A DNA stretch of 64,000 bases from a phage. Of this stretch, positions 1,859-39,644 are shown one piece after another (position 1 is the first letter of the stretch; each line of letters starts with the position of its first letter). The DNA is taken from the sequence record PX441839.1, one strand, 5' to 3'. Both the position numbers and the translations under genes were made by a program. Under the pieces are notes generated by a model. The model had not been told where the DNA came from. It searched no databases and saw only the letters and a list, made by a program, of their open reading frames with translations.

Positions 1859-3346
1859 ATGGCTTCCAATTACGGCTTGACAAGCAGCGGATTCAACCTC
1901 CCGGCTCTTGATGACCTGACGGAGGAAACCAAGAAGGCTTTCCGCCAGGCTTTCGGAGAAAACTTCAATACCGGAAGTAACTCAGTTGCTGACAAGCTGA
2001 TCTACATTCTCAACGAGAGAGAATATCAACTTTATCTTTTAATGGCCTCTGTTTATTCTGCTCAAACAATGCAGGGTGCCGAGGGAATCTATCTTGACGA
2101 TTTGCTGGGTAAAAGAGGTATTTACCGCTTAGGCAAAACAAGAAGTACCGGGACAGCAGTTCTTACTGTTGACGCTTCCGTTCCCTACAATATGATCTAT
2201 AACGCTTCCAGTTACAGCATTGACGGTGGAAACTACGAACTGGCAACTGATGTTCAAGTAGCAGGGAACATCATAGCACAGGTGATCAGAGGAACTGATC
2301 TGGTTGTTGGTAATTATAGATTAACAATTCAAAACGTCAATGATCAATCTCAAAGGACAGTGACCCACAACCTCACCGCAACGAGCGGTGCCCCTCTGAC
2401 AGTTTTCTTTAACGTCATAAAAGATTTCATTGTCACAAACACCATTTTGTCCAACCAAGACCGAATTGTCATTGATTCGGTAGAGGGTGCCATCTACATT
2501 GGATACAACACCAGCAAGGAGATGATTGGACTTTCAAGCCGTGTTGATTTCAGAACATCACCGCTGGCAGGGAATAAGACAATCCTTATTGATGTAAGAT
2601 CGGTAGAGCCAGGTGCAATATCACGAGAGGCACACAGTATTAGGTCGATCTCTCCAACCCCTAGTGGTTTTGTTGCTATAGATAACCTGAGTGCATTTAC
2701 CGATGGTTCAGACGTAGAGTCAGATAACGAGTACAAGCTTCGTGGGGCCATGTCCGTTAACTCAGGGAAGGCAACCCGACCTGCTATCCTCTCTGCCCTT
2801 TTGAACGGAGTGGAAGGGATAGAGAAGGTTCGCATATTCAACAACAATACGGATAAGACTAACGCACTAGGTATCCCACCTTATCGCTTTCAGGTTGTTG
2901 TTTATGGTGGCACAACAGAACAGATCAGTCAAGTCCTTTATGATACGATAGCGGCATCTAATAATACCTTTGGTACAACTTTCCACGACATCACTACAGA
3001 GGATGACCAGGTGGAAAGAATATGGCACACAAAGGCATCAGAAAGAAGGTTAGCTATTCGAGTACGCTACAGAGGACGACCGTTGTCTATGACTGAGGAG
3101 ACAGCCATTGCAAACGGGTTGGTCACGATAGTTAACGGATCTAATATCGCAGACACGATCTACAACGTTCAGTTGGTAGGTACAGTAATGAGTTCCACAA
3201 CACCGGGTAGATTCACCCAAGTGTTTGTAGATATTAAGAATAAAGGGGCACCTGATTCGGAATTTGTAAACTCTGACATAACAGCAGGTGTTACCGAGGT
3301 ATTCAACCTTGAACCGGAAGATGTCCAGTTCAGCCAAGTTGTGTAA
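1859..3346 (+). CDS. Baseplate J-like protein
   Basis: 495 aa ORF in the baseplate J position; SD GGAGGAG upstream of the ATG. Confidence 0.45.
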   Translation: MASNYGLTSSGFNLPALDDLTEETKKAFRQAFGENFNTGSNSVADKLIYILNEREYQLYLLMASVYSAQTMQGAEGIYLDDLLGKRGIYRLGKTRSTGTAVLTVDASVPYNMIYNASSYSIDGGNYELATDVQVAGNIIAQVIRGTDLVVGNYRLTIQNVNDQSQRTVTHNLTATSGAPLTVFFNVIKDFIVTNTILSNQDRIVIDSVEGAIYIGYNTSKEMIGLSSRVDFRTSPLAGNKTILIDVRSVEPGAISREAHSIRSISPTPSGFVAIDNLSAFTDGSDVESDNEYKLRGAMSVNSGKATRPAILSALLNGVEGIEKVRIFNNNTDKTNALGIPPYRFQVVVYGGTTEQISQVLYDTIAASNNTFGTTFHDITTEDDQVERIWHTKASERRLAIRVRYRGRPLSMTEETAIANGLVTIVNGSNIADTIYNVQLVGTVMSSTTPGRFTQVFVDIKNKGAPDSEFVNSDITAGVTEVFNLEPEDVQFSQVV

Positions 3347-29801: not shown

Positions 29802-30631
29802 CAAAGTTTAGCAGGTTCGTTAATCCTGCCCACACCATTACGTGTTGCCATACGGTTTCCCGTAGGATCGGACTATATCACCACCCTTTTCAGGGTGCTC
29901 CCCATTTCGACGCCACTTGGTCGCCTACGCCTCTCGGCTAGTCTCTGAACGTTAAGACCACGTATACTTCTCGGAAATATGCTTCCACTGCCGACGCTGC
30001 TTAATGGCTCGTACTGTTGCATAGGGGAATCCCATGTCGCGTACCTCTGCCTGGCTCATTCCGCTTTCAAGAAGCTGGCAAATGGTCATCACTTCGTCTT
30101 CTGTGAGGGCACTATTAGCATTGTTGATACCTTCCGCGCTGCGACAGTTGTGGCGATAGGCGTTCTCTATGTTTTTGCCTCTCGTAACCCACTGTAGGTT
30201 GTCTTTGTGGTTATTCCTTTTATCGGGCCACTTGTGATCAACCTCTGGAAGATTGTTCGGATTGGGAACAAAACATTCTGCCACCAAAACATGGACCGCC
30301 TTTGTCGTCGCCTTTTTGTTAAGGTAAAGACTGACAATTGCATACCCTCTTCCATTATCAACATGCTTCATAGGTTTACCTCGACGACCTATAATGGTCC
30401 CGTCCTCGTAAACTTTATATCCGAAATAGTCTTTGTACTCCACGTAGTCCTCTTCGCTGCTGATTAACATAGCTGCACTTTAGTTTATTATTAACCCAGT
30501 GTCAACCTTAGCCTTCCAGCAATTAAAGGAGTTTTCGATGTAGGTTGCCCTACAAAGCCACAATGTTACTTATGGTAATAGATAATACGACGAACTCCCT
30601 CGTCATACCATCCCTTCTTGACCAGTTGCCA
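29802..30631 (-). mobile_element. Group I intron in the DNA polymerase gene (boundaries approximate, about +/-6 nt)
   Basis: On the transcribed strand: P-like AATTGCTGGAAGG, R-like GTTCAGAGACTAGCC, S-like GATATAGTCC, terminal G before exon 2; contains an HNH ORF. Confidence 0.55.
29952..30470 (-). CDS. HNH homing endonuclease (intron-encoded)
   Basis: VHVLVAECFVPNPNNLPEVDHKWPDKRNNHKDNLQWVT His-Me finger signature; paralog of the ORF in the second intron. Confidence 0.65.
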   Translation of the reverse strand: MLISSEEDYVEYKDYFGYKVYEDGTIIGRRGKPMKHVDNGRGYAIVSLYLNKKATTKAVHVLVAECFVPNPNNLPEVDHKWPDKRNNHKDNLQWVTRGKNIENAYRHNCRSAEGINNANSALTEDEVMTICQLLESGMSQAEVRDMGFPYATVRAIKQRRQWKHISEKYTWS

Positions 30632-36761: not shown

Positions 36762-36780
36762 AAAAGGCCCCCGAAGGGAC
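36762..36780. terminator. Hairpin terminator after the primase-helicase gene
   Basis: Imperfect GGCCCC-CGAA-GGGACC hairpin flanked by A-run and T-run, immediately 3' of the stop at 36788. Confidence 0.45.
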
Positions 36781-36787
36781 CTTTTAT

Positions 36788-37258
36788 TTAGAAAGGTGGT
36801 TGGTCATCCCAATCACTGTCGTCTTCCACAACCTCAGGTGTGACTTTAGATTCTTCCGGTTTGGAATCCTCTTTAATCTCCATCTGCTGTGGTTCAATGT
36901 CATCTTCATCATCAGGGATATCGTCTTCCTTGAGATCAGATAGACCTTTCTCCGAGTTCTCTTGTGATAATGGCTGCATTTTACCAACAGCCTTCTCAAC
37001 ATAATGTTCAGAACTTGGATCATCTTCTGGATGAATCGCATACCACTCTCGAAGAGTTTCATATGGACTGTCCAAGAAGCCTTCTGGCGGTTCTAAGTAA
37101 TCACCTGTGTCAATATCATAGAACACAGGGAACTTCCCGCTACGCCCGTGCTTACGGTCATCTAGAATTACAAACCAAGAGGTATTTCGCTCTTTCATTG
37201 GCAACTCTGGATCTTTGTTACGCTCAATACCCACCATAAAATAAGTGTTCTTTTTGTC
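36788..37258 (-). CDS. Primase-helicase (T7 gp4-like), exon 2
   Basis: Begins DKKNTYFMVGIERNK...DDRKHGRSG...YDIDTGDYLEP (helicase C-terminal motifs) and ends in an acidic tail DDSDWDDQPPF with terminal Phe, as in T7 gp4. Confidence 0.55.
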   Translation of the reverse strand, partial: DKKNTYFMVGIERNKDPELPMKERNTSWFVILDDRKHGRSGKFPVFYDIDTGDYLEPPEGFLDSPYETLREWYAIHPEDDPSSEHYVEKAVGKMQPLSQENSEKGLSDLKEDDIPDDEDDIEPQQMEIKEDSKPEESKVTPEVVEDDSDWDDQPPF

Positions 37259-38123
37259 CAGTGGGTTCGCTACTCCCACCCGGTGCGATTCCTGGCACCC
37301 GCCTACACTTTCGTGCAGGAACAGACTATATCATCACCTTTCGGTGCTCTCCGCTTCGGGACCGCTTGGCCCTAACGCCTTTCGGCTAGTCGTTGAGGTT
37401 TTTGCACGTTCTGGGTACATCTTCCAAGAATACAAGTCCCCGACCTCTTTCCAATCCCTTCGGGAGCGGATATTGAGGACTGCTGACCTTGTTACAGGTA
37501 ATCCACTATTATCGACAATCTTCTGCGCTGACCAACCCTCAGAAAGAAGCCTACAAATTTTGTGAACCTCTGCCTCTGTGACTTTGGACCTGTAATGATC
37601 CTCTCCCCTCTTTGGAAGCTTATTGGCAATAGAGTGCTCAAGATTTTGCCTACCAGTGACCCATTCCAGGTCATCTTTGTGGTTAAATTCCTTGCCTCTT
37701 TTATGATTAACTTCGGGTAAGTTCAGCGGGTTTGGAATATAAGTCTTAGCTACCAACCTGTGAACATACTCGGGCGTTCTCTTACCTTTAAGTATCACAT
37801 TGACAAAATAATACCCTGTACTCTTGTTTCGAATGTTCTTCAAAAATTTATTTGTGAACAAACTAAATACCTTGCCATCTTCTGTTACAAGATATTTACT
37901 ACCCTCTTCTATTGGTATCATGTTTCCCCCTTCTTTATTCTAACAAAAGGGTATAATACACAAAAGAATTTGAATATGCAACTTACCTGCTGATTACCCA
38001 ATCCTCTGTCTTTTCAAACATTCACGCCCACCCTTACGGGTCACGTTGTAGTGCCAGAGGCTCTAAGGGCTTCCCAGCAATTCAAAGAGTTTTACATGCG
38101 CTAAATCAACGCATCATCGCACG
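37259..38123 (-). mobile_element. Group I intron in the primase-helicase gene (boundaries approximate)
   Basis: P-like AATTGCTGGGAAG, R-like CAACGACTAGCC, S-like GATGATATAGTCTG on the transcribed strand; core clearly related to the polymerase intron; contains an HNH ORF. Confidence 0.5.
37334..37921 (-). CDS. HNH homing endonuclease (intron-encoded)
   Basis: YVHRLVAKTYIPNPLNLPEVNHKRGKEFNHKDDLEWVT; paralog of the ORF at 29952-30470. Confidence 0.65.
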   Translation of the reverse strand: MIPIEEGSKYLVTEDGKVFSLFTNKFLKNIRNKSTGYYFVNVILKGKRTPEYVHRLVAKTYIPNPLNLPEVNHKRGKEFNHKDDLEWVTGRQNLEHSIANKLPKRGEDHYRSKVTEAEVHKICRLLSEGWSAQKIVDNSGLPVTRSAVLNIRSRRDWKEVGDLYSWKMYPERAKTSTTSRKALGPSGPEAESTER

Positions 38124-39644
38124 AGAACCTGCAAACTGTGCCGACTGAACCTGACCACCAAATTCATGGGGTTTTCCAGATTCCGGTTTGTTCAAGTGAC
38201 AGAAACAATAATATGTGAAACCTAAGTCCTTTGCAAGGATAGAGATCTCATCTGAAAATCGTTCCAGTTCTGTGTTAGCATCACCTGGTGACATACCTTG
38301 CACAAGTCGAGTAATTGGGTCGATAATAATATCTTCACAACCCTCCACCAAGACTGCGTGGCGGATTGCACCCTTCACCTCGTCCCATACTGCACGACCA
38401 TAGTTGGAATAATAAATGATCTTATCGCCAACATAATCTGTAGCTTGGATTAGTTCTTCATGCTTGAAGTATCCACGTTGTCCTTCAAAGATTTCGTTAC
38501 CCCAAACATCTCGGTAAGTCCCATCTTCCTGAGGGATCATTACCTTTTCTGCGTTAATGAAGTCCTTGTGGTAAATTTTACCTGCAACCTTCTTACAAGT
38601 GATGTCGTTCTCTTCTTCAAACTTAAAGATACCGACTTTCTTCTTGTCTTTTTCAATGATGTGCTCGACAAGTTGGTTAACAAACTCGGACTTACCGATC
38701 TTAACACCTGCACCAAGGAAGTATCCCTCTCCTTTACGACGACCCAGTGTCAACTTGGTCATGGTAGGCCAAGGCCATGATTTACCAAGTTTTGGAATCT
38801 CGTGCGCTTTGTCTCGAAATTGTGCATACGTAGAGAAACCTTCTGGTACATAGTCCTTTGGCTTCATTGCTGCCCAGAATAATTGGTCAGCCATTCCCTT
38901 GATGTACATGTCGCATGGGTCCATGTCCTCTGGGATGTCAACAACCTTCATCTGAGGAATTACTGAGTAAACCGCTGCAACAGCATCCTTACCTTTCATA
39001 ATCCCCTTGGCCTTTTCTGCCTCCGTTGCACGATCAGCATCAAAAGCTACAATAATCTCTTCAAACTTGTTCAGAAGCTTGTAGTTGTTCTTCTGAGCTA
39101 GGTTCTGCACGGCATTAGATGTGCCGTTGGAAATTGAGACCACCGTGAAGTTTGGTTTACGTGCATTTCCATCCTTAGATTTATACTTTTCTCGGAGAAC
39201 CTGCCACAACACTGCCGCATCGTACTCGCCCTCCGTGATAAAAATCATGCGACGTGAGGATTTATTTGCACCCTCCAGACCAAACAGGTCACAAGCGACA
39301 GATTGGAAACCAATCGTACTAAAGTGGCCCTTCTGTTGCTTAGGAATGGTCAGATCTCGCTTCTTAAAGCCGACGATCTTACCCTCCAGTGTGTAGGGAA
39401 AATAGTGCGCCTCTGGTGTCATCCCATCCTTGGCAGACAGCTTAGTCCTGATTCCAAAGCGCTCTGCCGTCTTCTGATCGATACCTCGCTCAGGGATGGC
39501 TTTAAATGGGTAAGTTTTTACATCTTCTACTGTTTCTTCAACCTTGTTCATACGACCACCCCCTACTGAACGAGATACCGATGCCTTCGGGTTCTTGTAC
39601 CCCGTCTTATAACCACCAAACAGACCTTCACCTAATGTGCTCAC
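38124..39644 (-). CDS. Primase-helicase (T7 gp4-like), exon 1
   Basis: TOPRIM FITEGEYDA; Walker A GAGVKIGKSEF; H3-like CHLNKPESGKPHEFGG; last few ORF-track codons (38106-38123) interpreted as intron read-through. Confidence 0.7.

What the first reader, a model, noticed from the sequence alone, without database searches (positions are those of the whole stretch)
36788..39644. Second, related group I intron with paralogous HNH endonuclease splitting the gp4-like primase-helicase
The primase-helicase ORF stops right after the helicase H3-like motif. The next ORF downstream supplies the missing helicase C-terminal motifs and the acidic tail ending in Phe, as in T7 gp4. Between them lie the same P/R/S-like elements as in the polymerase intron and a paralogous HNH ORF. 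Proposed junction ...QFAGS | DKKNTYFMVGIERN, with U as last exon nucleotide and G as last intron nucleotide. Two related introns in two essential replication genes suggests intron homing within one genome.
Basis: partly seen in the sequence, partly recalled or inferred. Interest (0 to 1): 0.55.

Follow-up and report, generated by a model that had tools for sequence, protein, structure and literature searches.

The report
Self-splicing intron splitting phage primase-helicase gene

Summary
The finding is real. The window comes from an rV5-like (Vequintavirinae) phage. Its T7-gp4-like primase-helicase gene, on the minus strand, is split by a group I intron at 38108..37250 (859 nt).

Removing that stretch gives a 1998-nt ORF. 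It has the same length as the uninterrupted gene of Salmonella phage SSBI34, with 658 of 666 positions identical, and it aligns without a gap to T7 gp4 across the junction.

The true junction is ...SRAMMR|NTYFMVGIERN (ATGATGCGU | ...AAAAAG | AACACU). It lies inside helicase motif H4.

All core helices are present: P1 and P3 to P9, plus P7.1/P7.2 and P9.1/P9.2. Six other introns at the identical site support them with compensatory base changes, as does a large family of phage introns.

A 195-aa I-HmuI-like HNH gene sits in the P6 loop. It is 40% identical to the HNH gene of the DNA-polymerase intron.

HNH-bearing group I introns that splice are already documented in this phage subfamily, though not in this gene. 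I therefore class this as a new member of a known kind.

One extra observation is worth noting. A 98.7%-identical tract shared with intron-less SSBI34 is centred on the insertion site, against an ~84% background. It suggests recent endonuclease-linked recombination.

The parts
38109..39644 (-). Exon 1 of the primase-helicase gene (512 codons; Toprim primase domain, helicase motifs H1 to H3 and the first half of H4). Its last 6 nt, AUGCGU (38114..38109), form the 5' strand of P1.
   Evidence: ORF list. BLASTN against intron-less SSBI34 ends at 38110. Weak, below-cutoff Pfam DnaB_C and Toprim_2 hits. Alignment to T7 gp4.
37250..38108 (-). Group I intron, 859 nt. It starts UGAUUUAGCGCAU and ends ...UGGACAAAAAG (terminal G at 37250). 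The exon-1 stop codon UGA is its first three bases.
   Evidence: Absent from SSBI34 and phiTE at exactly this point. RF00028 sub-threshold hit. Fold of the ORF-deleted RNA gives the canonical helices. Covariation.
38096..38101 (-). Internal guide sequence GCGCAU. It pairs with exon AUGCGU to form P1, with a U.G pair at the splice site.
   Evidence: Sequence. All seven introns at this site keep exon ...AUGAUGCGU, while intron-less alleles vary (CGA, AGA, AGG, CAA, GAA).
37985..38089 (-). 5' half of the core. P3 5' strand is CUCUUUG (38089..38083) and P4 is UGCUGG/UCAGCA (38079..38074 with 37993..37988). P5 is GCCC/GGGU and P5a is CCUCUG/CAGAGG, followed by P5b/c and the P6 5' strand GGU (37987..37985).
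   Evidence: This stretch is 75-80% identical to the cores of Twort nrdE and many other phage introns.
37334..37921 (-). HNH homing-endonuclease ORF (195 aa) in the P6 loop. Shine-Dalgarno AAGGGGG lies 5 nt upstream. The last ~85 nt run through P6', P7, P7.1, P7.2, P3' and into P8, where the stop UGA lies.
   Evidence: PHROG 59 HNH endonuclease, E = 3e-27. Best solved relative is I-HmuI, 1u3e, E = 3e-6. 67-84% identical orthologues at the same intron site. Catalytic His and Asn columns are invariant.
37953..37981 (-). Promoter-like element TTGCAT-N17-TATTAT just 3' of the P6 5' strand, upstream of the HNH ORF. A role as an internal promoter is inferred.
   Evidence: Present at the equivalent place in 5 of 7 orthologous introns although the spacers differ. 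Not flagged by the consensus scan. The ORF's Shine-Dalgarno lies in a predicted hairpin.
37302..37399 (-). 3' catalytic core. P6' is at 37399..37397, the P7 5' strand GACUA at 37391..37387, P7.1 at 37386..37377 and P7.2 at 37372..37359. P3' CGGAGAG is at 37353..37347, P8 at 37346..37335, P7 3' strand UAGUC at 37328..37324 and P9 at 37319..37302.
   Evidence: Model R1 scores 120.5 bits here and 97.2 bits at the polymerase intron, with no other hit in the window. Family-wide covariation over 98 distinct sequences.
37250..37299 (-). Peripheral hairpins P9.1 (37299..37282) and P9.2 (37279..37261, loop AGUAGCGAA), followed by the tail UGGACAAAAAG ending in the terminal G.
   Evidence: The P9.2 stem changes GUGGG/CCCAC to AUGAG/CUCAU, GUGAG/CUCAC and GGAGG/CCUCC in orthologues.
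36788..37249 (-). Exon 2 (153 codons plus stop). It holds the second half of motif H4 and the region aligned to the DNA-binding loop and arginine finger of T7 gp4. It also holds the acidic C-terminal tail ending in Phe.
36762..36785 (-). Intrinsic-terminator-like hairpin with a U tract directly after the gene.

Best explanation
The element is a mobile, self-splicing group I intron of the phage IA2-like type, defined by P7.1 and P7.2 between P7 and P3'. It is inserted in the primase-helicase gene between the codons for R512 and N513, inside helicase motif H4.

**Proposed mechanism**
1. The gene is transcribed as one pre-mRNA.
2. The intron's guide sequence GCGCAU pairs with the last six exon bases AUGCGU to form P1, with a U.G pair at the cleavage site.
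3. An external guanosine attacks after U(38109).
4. The freed exon then attacks after the terminal G(37250).
5. The exons join as AUGAUGCGU-AACACU. The mRNA encodes a 665-aa primase-helicase collinear with intron-less homologues.
6. Ribosomes that read unspliced RNA stop at the UGA formed by the first three intron bases.

**Mobility**
The P6 loop carries an I-HmuI-like HNH endonuclease gene. It probably has its own promoter, and its ribosome-binding site is sequestered in a hairpin. By analogy with I-HmuI, the enzyme is expected to nick DNA near the insertion site of a co-infecting intron-less relative. Recombinational repair would then copy the intron and neighbouring exon sequence into that relative.

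**Shown versus inferred**
- Shown here: the exact boundaries, restoration of the reading frame, the complete core with covariation, an intact and conserved HNH ORF, and patchy presence or absence at one fixed site.
- Inferred: splicing in vivo, endonuclease activity and its cleavage site, and the internal promoter.
For: **Boundaries and reading frame**
- BLASTN against intron-less SSBI34 and phiTE breaks exactly at 38110/37249.
- The spliced CDS is 1998 nt, the same length as in SSBI34, with 658 of 666 positions identical.
- 21 further intron-less alleles read ...MM[R/Q/E]|[N/S/A].Y.
- The alignment to T7 gp4 runs without a gap across the junction, E = 8e-15.

**RNA structure**
- Full-length RF00028 alignment, sub-threshold.
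- The minimum-free-energy fold of the ORF-deleted RNA reproduces P1, P3, P4, P5, P5a, P5b/c, P7.1, P7.2, P8, P9, P9.1 and P9.2.
- RNAalifold on four orthologues finds 17 of 50 pairs with compensatory changes.
- In the five-orthologue alignment, 73 pairs including the P7 pseudoknot are 97.8% canonical. Sixteen pairs change on both sides, 0 of 500 shuffles reach that, and slid controls give 30-45% paired.
- The 3' core model finds 117 family members. They are 98.5% paired, and 22 of 24 pairs have compensatory changes.
- The U(-1)/U.G pair and the terminal G are present. All intron-bearing alleles have CGU at the junction.

**Same site elsewhere**
- Phage W70, IMG/VR loci L025 and L026, and metagenome contigs L388, L391 and L393 carry an intron at the identical position.

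**Endonuclease**
-.

**Precedent**
- HNH introns in the polymerase, terminase, nrdA and nrdB genes of the related phage CB7 splice, as shown by RT-PCR (PMC7344957).

**Recent recombination**
- A 98.7%-identity tract shared with SSBI34 is centred on the insertion site, against an 84% background.
Against: - There are no RNA data, so splicing is inferred.
- The Rfam score is well below the gathering threshold (23.8 versus 50 bits).
- P10 pairing with the 3' exon is weak or absent.
- The HNH ORF has no Pfam hit at E <= 0.01, although its orthologues are annotated PF13392.
- The ORF runs about 85 nt into the catalytic core, so translation could interfere with folding.
- This copy carries a 1-nt insertion in J7.1/7.2 that extends the ORF by 13 codons.
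- Endonuclease activity and target are untested.
- Alignment A4 was fitted to the model, which inflates the counts of paired cells.
Confidence: 0.9

Rival explanations
1. Split gene without splicing. The HNH gene is a free-standing endonuclease that has cut the primase-helicase into two separately translated polypeptides, which may associate. The RNA core is a decayed relic.
For: GenBank annotates the W70 locus as separate CDSs. The W70 paper counts the pieces as extra helicases. The Rfam score is sub-threshold.
Against: - Every core helix is intact and kept by compensatory changes across seven orthologues.
- The exon-2 frame has no credible start. Its only in-frame initiator is a GUG inside the P9.2 stem, with no Shine-Dalgarno.
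- Exon 1 alone would end in the middle of motif H4 and lack the arginine-finger region.
- All intron-bearing alleles retain the U(-1) needed for P1.
Confidence: 0.04
2. The intron splices but no longer moves. The HNH ORF is inactive or serves another role, and the intron is inherited only vertically.
For: There is no Pfam HNH hit for this copy. The residue before the catalytic His is Asn, where I-HmuI has Asp. This copy has a frame-extending indel at the 3' end.
Against: - The ORF is full length and 64-84% identical to orthologues P0001-P0009 (45% to the more distant P0010). The His, Asn and Asn/His columns are invariant, and Asn-His is shared by all orthologues at this site.
- Presence is patchy among close relatives. 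SSBI34, 84% identical overall, lacks both introns.
- A recombination tract is centred on the site.
Confidence: 0.15
3. The junction is as the first reader proposed (...QFAGS|DKKNTYF).
For: It also places a U before the 5' cut and a G before the 3' cut.
Against: - It would make a protein two residues shorter than every homologue, without the conserved RAMMR.
- It would leave the exon strand of P1 inside the intron.
- It contradicts the BLASTN breakpoints.
Confidence: 0.01

Closest known systems
HNH-containing group I introns of Vequintavirinae phage CB7 (DNA polymerase, large terminase, NrdA, NrdB; Buttimer et al. 2020, PMC7344957)
   Same: Same phage subfamily and same architecture: a group I intron with an HNH ORF in an essential gene. 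Splicing was shown by RT-PCR. The window's own polymerase intron matches this CB7 locus across about 43% of the query, in two pieces at 85% identity.
   Different: No primase-helicase intron is listed for CB7 or phiTE, and phiTE's gene is uninterrupted. The insertion site in motif H4 is new relative to that paper.
Bacillus phage SPO1/SP82 DNA-polymerase intron with I-HmuI/I-HmuII
   Same: A group I intron in a replication gene encoding an HNH endonuclease. I-HmuI (PDB 1u3e) is the only significant solved relative of the ORF here. From my own knowledge, I-HmuI is a nicking enzyme that also favours inheritance of flanking markers.
   Different: Different host gene and different bacterial phylum. 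Similarity was detected only over ORF residues 9-99, at E = 3e-6. Activity was not tested here.
Self-splicing introns of Staphylococcus phage Twort nrdE (AF485080; Landthaler et al. 2002, cited in PMC7344957)
   Same: The P3-P5 core region is about 77% identical over about 110 nt. The overall core type is the same.
   Different: Different gene and host. Only the 5' core region is detectably similar at the DNA level.
Phage T4 td, nrdB and sunY introns (subgroup IA2)
   Same: From my own knowledge: P7.1/P7.2 extensions, an ORF looped out of a peripheral helix, an upstream-exon stop codon just inside the intron, and intron ORF expression controlled by an internal promoter and a sequestered ribosome-binding site.
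   Different: The T4 ORFs are GIY-YIG (I-TevI, I-TevII) or a defective HNH-type (I-TevIII). There is no detectable DNA similarity to the T4 introns. These comparisons rest on memory and were not computed.
Inteins in DnaB-family helicases and other replication proteins
   Same: Selfish elements that lodge in the most conserved motifs of replication enzymes. CB7 has a helicase intein.
   Different: Inteins splice at the protein level. Here an RNA core is present, the upstream frame is closed by a stop codon, and there are no intein motifs.

Membership tests
Group I intron (Rfam RF00028) | Score at or above the family's gathering threshold | tested here: not met
   23.8 bits versus 50. The related polymerase intron reaches 54 bits. 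The shortfall comes with the 588-nt ORF insert and the extra helices.
Group I intron (Rfam RF00028) | Conserved core: P3-P8 domain, P4-P6 domain, and the P3/P7 pseudoknot | tested here: met
   All helices were located. 73 pairs are 97.8% canonical, and 16 have compensatory changes in five orthologues. The 3' core covaries across 98 distinct family members.
Group I intron (Rfam RF00028) | U as the last exon base, paired to G of the internal guide in P1; G as the last intron base | tested here: met
   AUGCGU/GCGCAU with a U.G pair, and the intron ends ...AAAAAG. The other reading that keeps the frame (cut after CG, intron ending in A) violates both rules.
Group I intron (Rfam RF00028) | Excision restores an uninterrupted, conserved reading frame | tested here: met
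Group I intron (Rfam RF00028) | Guanosine-dependent self-splicing | not testable with these tools
   Needs RT-PCR or an in-vitro splicing assay.
Subgroup IA (IA2-like phage introns) | Two extra hairpins, P7.1 and P7.2, between the 5' strand of P7 and the 3' strand of P3 (criterion recalled from Michel and Westhof 1990) | tested here: met
   P7.1 is GCC-GAAA-GGC and P7.2 is GGGCC-AAGC-GGUCC. Both covary in the family (helices 2 and 3). No P2 in this copy. Finer subgroup assignment was not tested.
HNH homing endonuclease, I-HmuI-like (Pfam HNH_3, PF13392) | Pfam HNH_3 match above the curated cut-off | tested here: not met
   No hit for this ORF. The polymerase-intron paralogue scores 22.5 versus 24.8. 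Orthologues P0002 to P0010 carry a precomputed PF13392 hit.
HNH homing endonuclease, I-HmuI-like (Pfam HNH_3, PF13392) | Conserved catalytic motif (His ... Asn ... Asn/His) and homology to a characterised member | tested here: met
   PHROG 59, E = 3e-27. I-HmuI 1u3e, E = 3e-6, aligned over the motif. H73, N80 and N93 are invariant, and N84 and H96 nearly so, in 11 sequences.
HNH homing endonuclease, I-HmuI-like (Pfam HNH_3, PF13392) | Site-specific nicking or cleavage of the intron-less allele, and homing | not testable with these tools
   Indirect evidence only: patchy distribution at one fixed site and a recombination tract around it.
T7 gp4-like primase-helicase (DnaB/SF4 family) | Toprim primase domain followed by a RecA-type helicase domain with motifs H1 to H4 | tested here: met
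   Helicase half versus T7 gp4 structures, E = 8e-15 to 5e-12, covering gp4 residues 298-511. Pfam DnaB_C scores 26.2 bits against a 27-bit cut-off, and Toprim_2 is below its cut-off. Orthologues are annotated DNA primase/helicase.

The most novel reading that the evidence does not exclude
The exon sequence around this intron may preserve a fresh footprint of endonuclease-driven recombination in nature.

- The window phage and intron-less SSBI34 are about 84% identical across 12 kb. They are 98.7% identical over about 600 nt centred on the insertion site, roughly 130 nt of exon 1 and all of exon 2.
- Three of the ten or so differences in that tract are synonymous changes at -10, -1 and +3 of the insertion site in SSBI34.
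- One reading is a recent homing or marker-exclusion event, or an intron loss, followed by target-site changes in the intron-less allele. Those changes would both abolish the U needed for P1 and possibly protect the allele against the HNH enzyme.
- The same intron lineage has colonised at least three sites in replication genes of these phages: the polymerase gene, helicase motif H4 and the helicase P-loop.
Probability: 0.35. Interest if true: 0.45.

Novelty: new member of a known kind. Interest (0 to 1): 0.3.

Why it matters
**Annotation.** The two ORFs are one gene, and the HNH ORF is intron-encoded. The only isolate genome with the same intron (phage W70) is deposited as separate CDSs. Its paper counts the fragments as additional helicases. 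That inflates gene counts and apparent replication-module diversity.

**Biology.** The finding adds helicase motif H4 of a T7-gp4-like primase-helicase to the known targets of phage group I introns. The P-loop is a second target, seen in W70 and contig L391. One intron lineage has therefore spread through several replication genes of the rV5-like phages.

**Experimental use.** The intron-bearing window phage and intron-less SSBI34 have near-identical flanks. The pair could serve as a natural system for measuring homing and marker exclusion.

None of this changes current understanding of group I introns.

Tried and rejected
**Searches that gave nothing useful**
- Pfam on the HNH ORF gave no significant hit. 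PHROGs and PDB were used instead.
- An exact-sequence look-up of the HNH protein found nothing on record.
They showed only that these core motifs are very widespread. Among the 255 motif hits, the only helicase-site introns were ones already known.
- The sigma-70 consensus scan did not flag the intron-internal TTGCAT-N17-TATTAT element, because the -35 hexamer matches only 3 of 6 positions. The element is reported only as a conserved candidate.

**Technical problems**
- MAFFT misplaced the 5' exon of L391, which has a long L1 loop, and shifted P7.2 and P9.2 by a column in some rows. P1 counts are slightly understated as a result.
- Several of my hand-entered strands for the divergent L025 and L026 were out of register. 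Those two introns are used only qualitatively.

**Alternatives considered and rejected**
- Intein: there is a stop codon at the junction and an RNA core.
- Group II intron: no domain V or reverse-transcriptase ORF, whereas a group I core is present.
- Programmed frameshift or read-through: 859 nt would have to be bypassed.
- Free-standing endonuclease in a truly split gene: see the rival explanations.
- A further copy of the intron in the window: model R1 finds only the two.
Full report
**What is there**

Genes in this part of the window lie on the minus strand. A 512-codon ORF (39644..38109) with primase and helicase similarity ends at a TGA at 38108..38106. A 195-codon ORF follows (37921..37334). 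Then comes a frame (37249..36788) that ends ...DWDDQPPF, followed by a terminator-like hairpin.

Rfam finds one group I intron above threshold in the window. It is the DNA-polymerase intron at 29849-30581 (54 bits). With relaxed thresholds Rfam also gives a full-length but weak match at 37302-38170 (23.8 bits; E = 0.0019 in 1.7 kb, 0.071 in the window). The two regions align, and their 3' halves are about 80% identical.

**Source and intron-less relatives**

The closest records are rV5-like phages (Vequintavirinae). Salmonella phage SSBI34 matches both flanks but lacks the middle. Its primase-helicase is a single 665-aa CDS, as is that of phiTE.

BLASTN breaks at window 38110 and 37249. Joining 39644..38109 to 37249..36788 gives 1998 nt, exactly the SSBI34 length, with 658 of 666 positions identical.

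Twenty-one further intron-less alleles from IMG/VR read ...MM[R/Q/E]|[N/S/A].Y.... The joined protein aligns to T7 gp4 without a gap across the junction: FAGSRAMMR|NTYFMVGIERN against LRGSGALRQ|LSDTIIALERN (E = 8e-15).

With gp4 numbering taken from the 6n7i match, the junction falls between Q494 and L495. That is inside motif H4, residues 480-500 (PMC1616965).

The intron is therefore 38108..37250 (859 nt). The junction is AUGAUGCGU|...AAAAAG|AACACU.

One other cut pair would keep the frame: after CG, with the intron ending in A. It breaks both the U(-1) rule and the terminal-G rule.

**RNA structure**

- The exon bases AUGCGU pair with intron GCGCAU (38101..38096), giving P1 with a U.G pair at the cleavage site. 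The exon-1 stop codon is the first three intron bases.
- With the ORF removed, the single-sequence minimum-free-energy fold gives P1, P3, P4, P5, P5a, P5b/c, P7.1, P7.2, P8, P9, P9.1 and P9.2. P7 (GACUA/UAGUC) forms the usual pseudoknot with P3. P6 (GGU/ACC) closes the loop that holds the ORF.
- The P7.1 and P7.2 hairpins place the intron with the subgroup IA phage introns. That criterion is recalled from the literature.

**Orthologues and covariation**

Six other introns sit at the identical codon boundary:
- phage W70 (L002);
- IMG/VR contigs L025 and L026;
- metagenome contigs L388, L391 and L393, reached through homologues of the HNH protein.

All have exon 1 ending AUGAUGCGU. Intron-less alleles use CGU, CGA, AGA, AGG, CAA or GAA at that codon.

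RNAalifold on an automatic alignment of four ORF-deleted introns recovered P1, P3, P4, P5, P5a, P6, P8 and P9. Seventeen of 50 pairs had compensatory changes.

On a five-orthologue alignment I scored a 73-pair structure that includes the P7 pseudoknot:
- 97.8% of cells are canonical pairs;
- 16 pairs have changes on both sides;
- 0 of 500 shuffles reach this;
- slid controls give 30-45% paired.

A covariance model of the 3' core (P7 to P9), built from three sequences, hits only the two introns in the window. It finds 117 sites in 100 other sources. These are 98.5% paired, and 22 of 24 pairs have compensatory changes. That alignment is fitted to the model, which favours pairing.

The 5' core is 75-80% identical to many phage introns, including the Twort nrdE introns.

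**The ORF**

The 195-aa protein matches PHROG 59, HNH endonuclease, at E = 3e-27. It matches I-HmuI (1u3e) over the catalytic motif at E = 3e-6. It has no significant Pfam hit.

It is 40% identical to the polymerase-intron ORF. It is 67% identical to the W70 orthologue and 84% identical to a metagenomic one. After the same-site orthologues, the polymerase-intron HNH proteins of this phage subfamily are among its nearest relatives. The paralogy claim therefore holds. The motif His and Asn columns are invariant across 11 sequences.

The ORF lies in the P6 loop, has a strong Shine-Dalgarno, and runs about 85 nt into the core. In most orthologues it stops at a UAG in J7.1/7.2. This copy has one extra U there, so it continues for 13 codons to a UGA in P8.

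A TTGCAT-N17-TATTAT element directly after the P6 5' strand is kept in 5 of 7 orthologues. The Shine-Dalgarno lies in a predicted hairpin. I infer separate, regulated expression of the endonuclease, as described for the T4 introns. That comparison rests on my own knowledge.

**Mobility**

SSBI34 lacks both introns. Phages with and without the helicase intron are intermixed.

Identity between the window and SSBI34 averages 84% (sd 4.5% in 600-column blocks) over 12 kb. It reaches 98.7% over 36769..37249 plus 38109..38237, which is the only such tract.

The tract is not explained by sequence conservation. phiTE is only 77% identical to the window in exon 2, and its C-terminal tail differs in length (693 versus 666 positions including the stop).

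Three of the roughly ten differences in the tract are synonymous changes at -10, -1 and +3 of the insertion site. This pattern fits recent recombination focused on the endonuclease target, but its direction cannot be resolved here.

**Relation to the polymerase intron**

The polymerase intron is 30571..29802 (770 nt), with U(-1) and a terminal G. It is widespread in the subfamily.

The two target sites are unrelated in sequence, and the HNH proteins are only 40% identical. The two introns are therefore old paralogues, not a recent copy made within this genome.

A third site exists. W70 has a 283-nt ORF-less intron of the same family in the P-loop codons (GAG|VKMGKS). Contig L391 has an HNH-bearing intron at the same place.

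**Comparison with what is known**

HNH-containing group I introns in replication and nucleotide-metabolism genes are classic phage elements. In this subfamily, splicing has been shown by RT-PCR for polymerase, terminase, nrdA and nrdB introns of phage CB7. The primase-helicase gene is not on that list (PMC7344957).

I found no paper describing a group I intron in a phage primase-helicase gene. The W70 paper treats the fragments as extra helicases.

**Verdict**

This is a genuine group I intron with a homing-endonuclease gene. It is a new member of a known kind. The splice junction is corrected, and there is a modestly interesting recombination footprint. Interest 0.3.

Noticed in passing
window 36769..37249 and 38109..38237 (versus L387, SSBI34): This is the only tract of near-identity (98.7% over 600 aligned columns) between the window and SSBI34, against a background of about 84%. 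It is centred on the helicase-intron insertion site and extends further into exon 2 than into exon 1. No comparable peak exists at the polymerase-intron site.
   Followed up: partly
window 38118, 38109, 37247: Within that near-identical tract, intron-less SSBI34 differs by synonymous changes at -10 (GCG/GCA), -1 (CGT/CGA) and +3 (AAC/AAT) of the insertion site. The -1 change removes the U needed for P1. The changes might also alter the endonuclease target.
   Followed up: no
window 29802..30571 (minus strand): Exact boundaries of the DNA-polymerase intron, from comparison with the uninterrupted SSBI34 polymerase gene. It is 770 nt, exon 1 ends ...UAUUACCAU, and the intron ends in G. It has a P2 hairpin that the helicase intron lacks. 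Its HNH ORF (30470..29952) stops before the core.
   Followed up: partly
L002 (phage W70) 2140..2422; L391 about 2340..3190: A third insertion site for the same intron family lies inside the Walker A/P-loop codons of the primase-helicase (GAG|VKMGKS). W70 has a 283-nt ORF-less intron there. Metagenome contig L391 has an intron there with a NUMOD4+HNH_3 ORF. Both genomes also carry the motif-H4 intron.
   Followed up: partly
L002 (OP778610.1) CDS W70_65 to W70_68: The GenBank annotation of W70 lists the three exons and the HNH ORF as independent CDSs. The exon-3 CDS starts at an ATG inside the intron core. The published description counts extra helicases in W70 and does not mention introns.
   Followed up: yes
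window 37953..37981; orthologues in L388, L391, L393, L025: A TTGCAT/TTGACT-N17-TATTAT/TAATAT/TATAAT element immediately follows the P6 5' strand and lies upstream of the HNH ORF. It is conserved in position in 5 of 7 orthologous introns. W70 keeps only the -35-like hexamer.
   Followed up: partly
window 37922..37960: The Shine-Dalgarno of the HNH ORF (AAGGGGG) pairs with an upstream CCCUUUU in a predicted hairpin (z = -2.4). W70 has a different but equivalent stem (GUCCC/GGGAC).
   Followed up: partly
window 37334..37375: One extra U in J7.1/7.2 (GGCGUUAG versus GGCGUAG in orthologues) removes the usual in-frame UAG. The HNH ORF is extended by 13 codons, to a UGA inside P8.
   Followed up: yes
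L388 6132..6233; L391 7775..7876: There are further strong matches (67-69 bits) to the 3'-core model a few kb downstream of the primase-helicase in two metagenome contigs. They indicate additional introns of this family in other genes of those phages.
   Followed up: no
L388 intron, P4 3' strand: The L388 intron has UCAGCC instead of UCAGCA, giving a U.C mismatch at the outer P4 pair. This is the only break in P4 among the orthologues.
   Followed up: no
This intron type is therefore very abundant in environmental phage sequence.
   Followed up: partly
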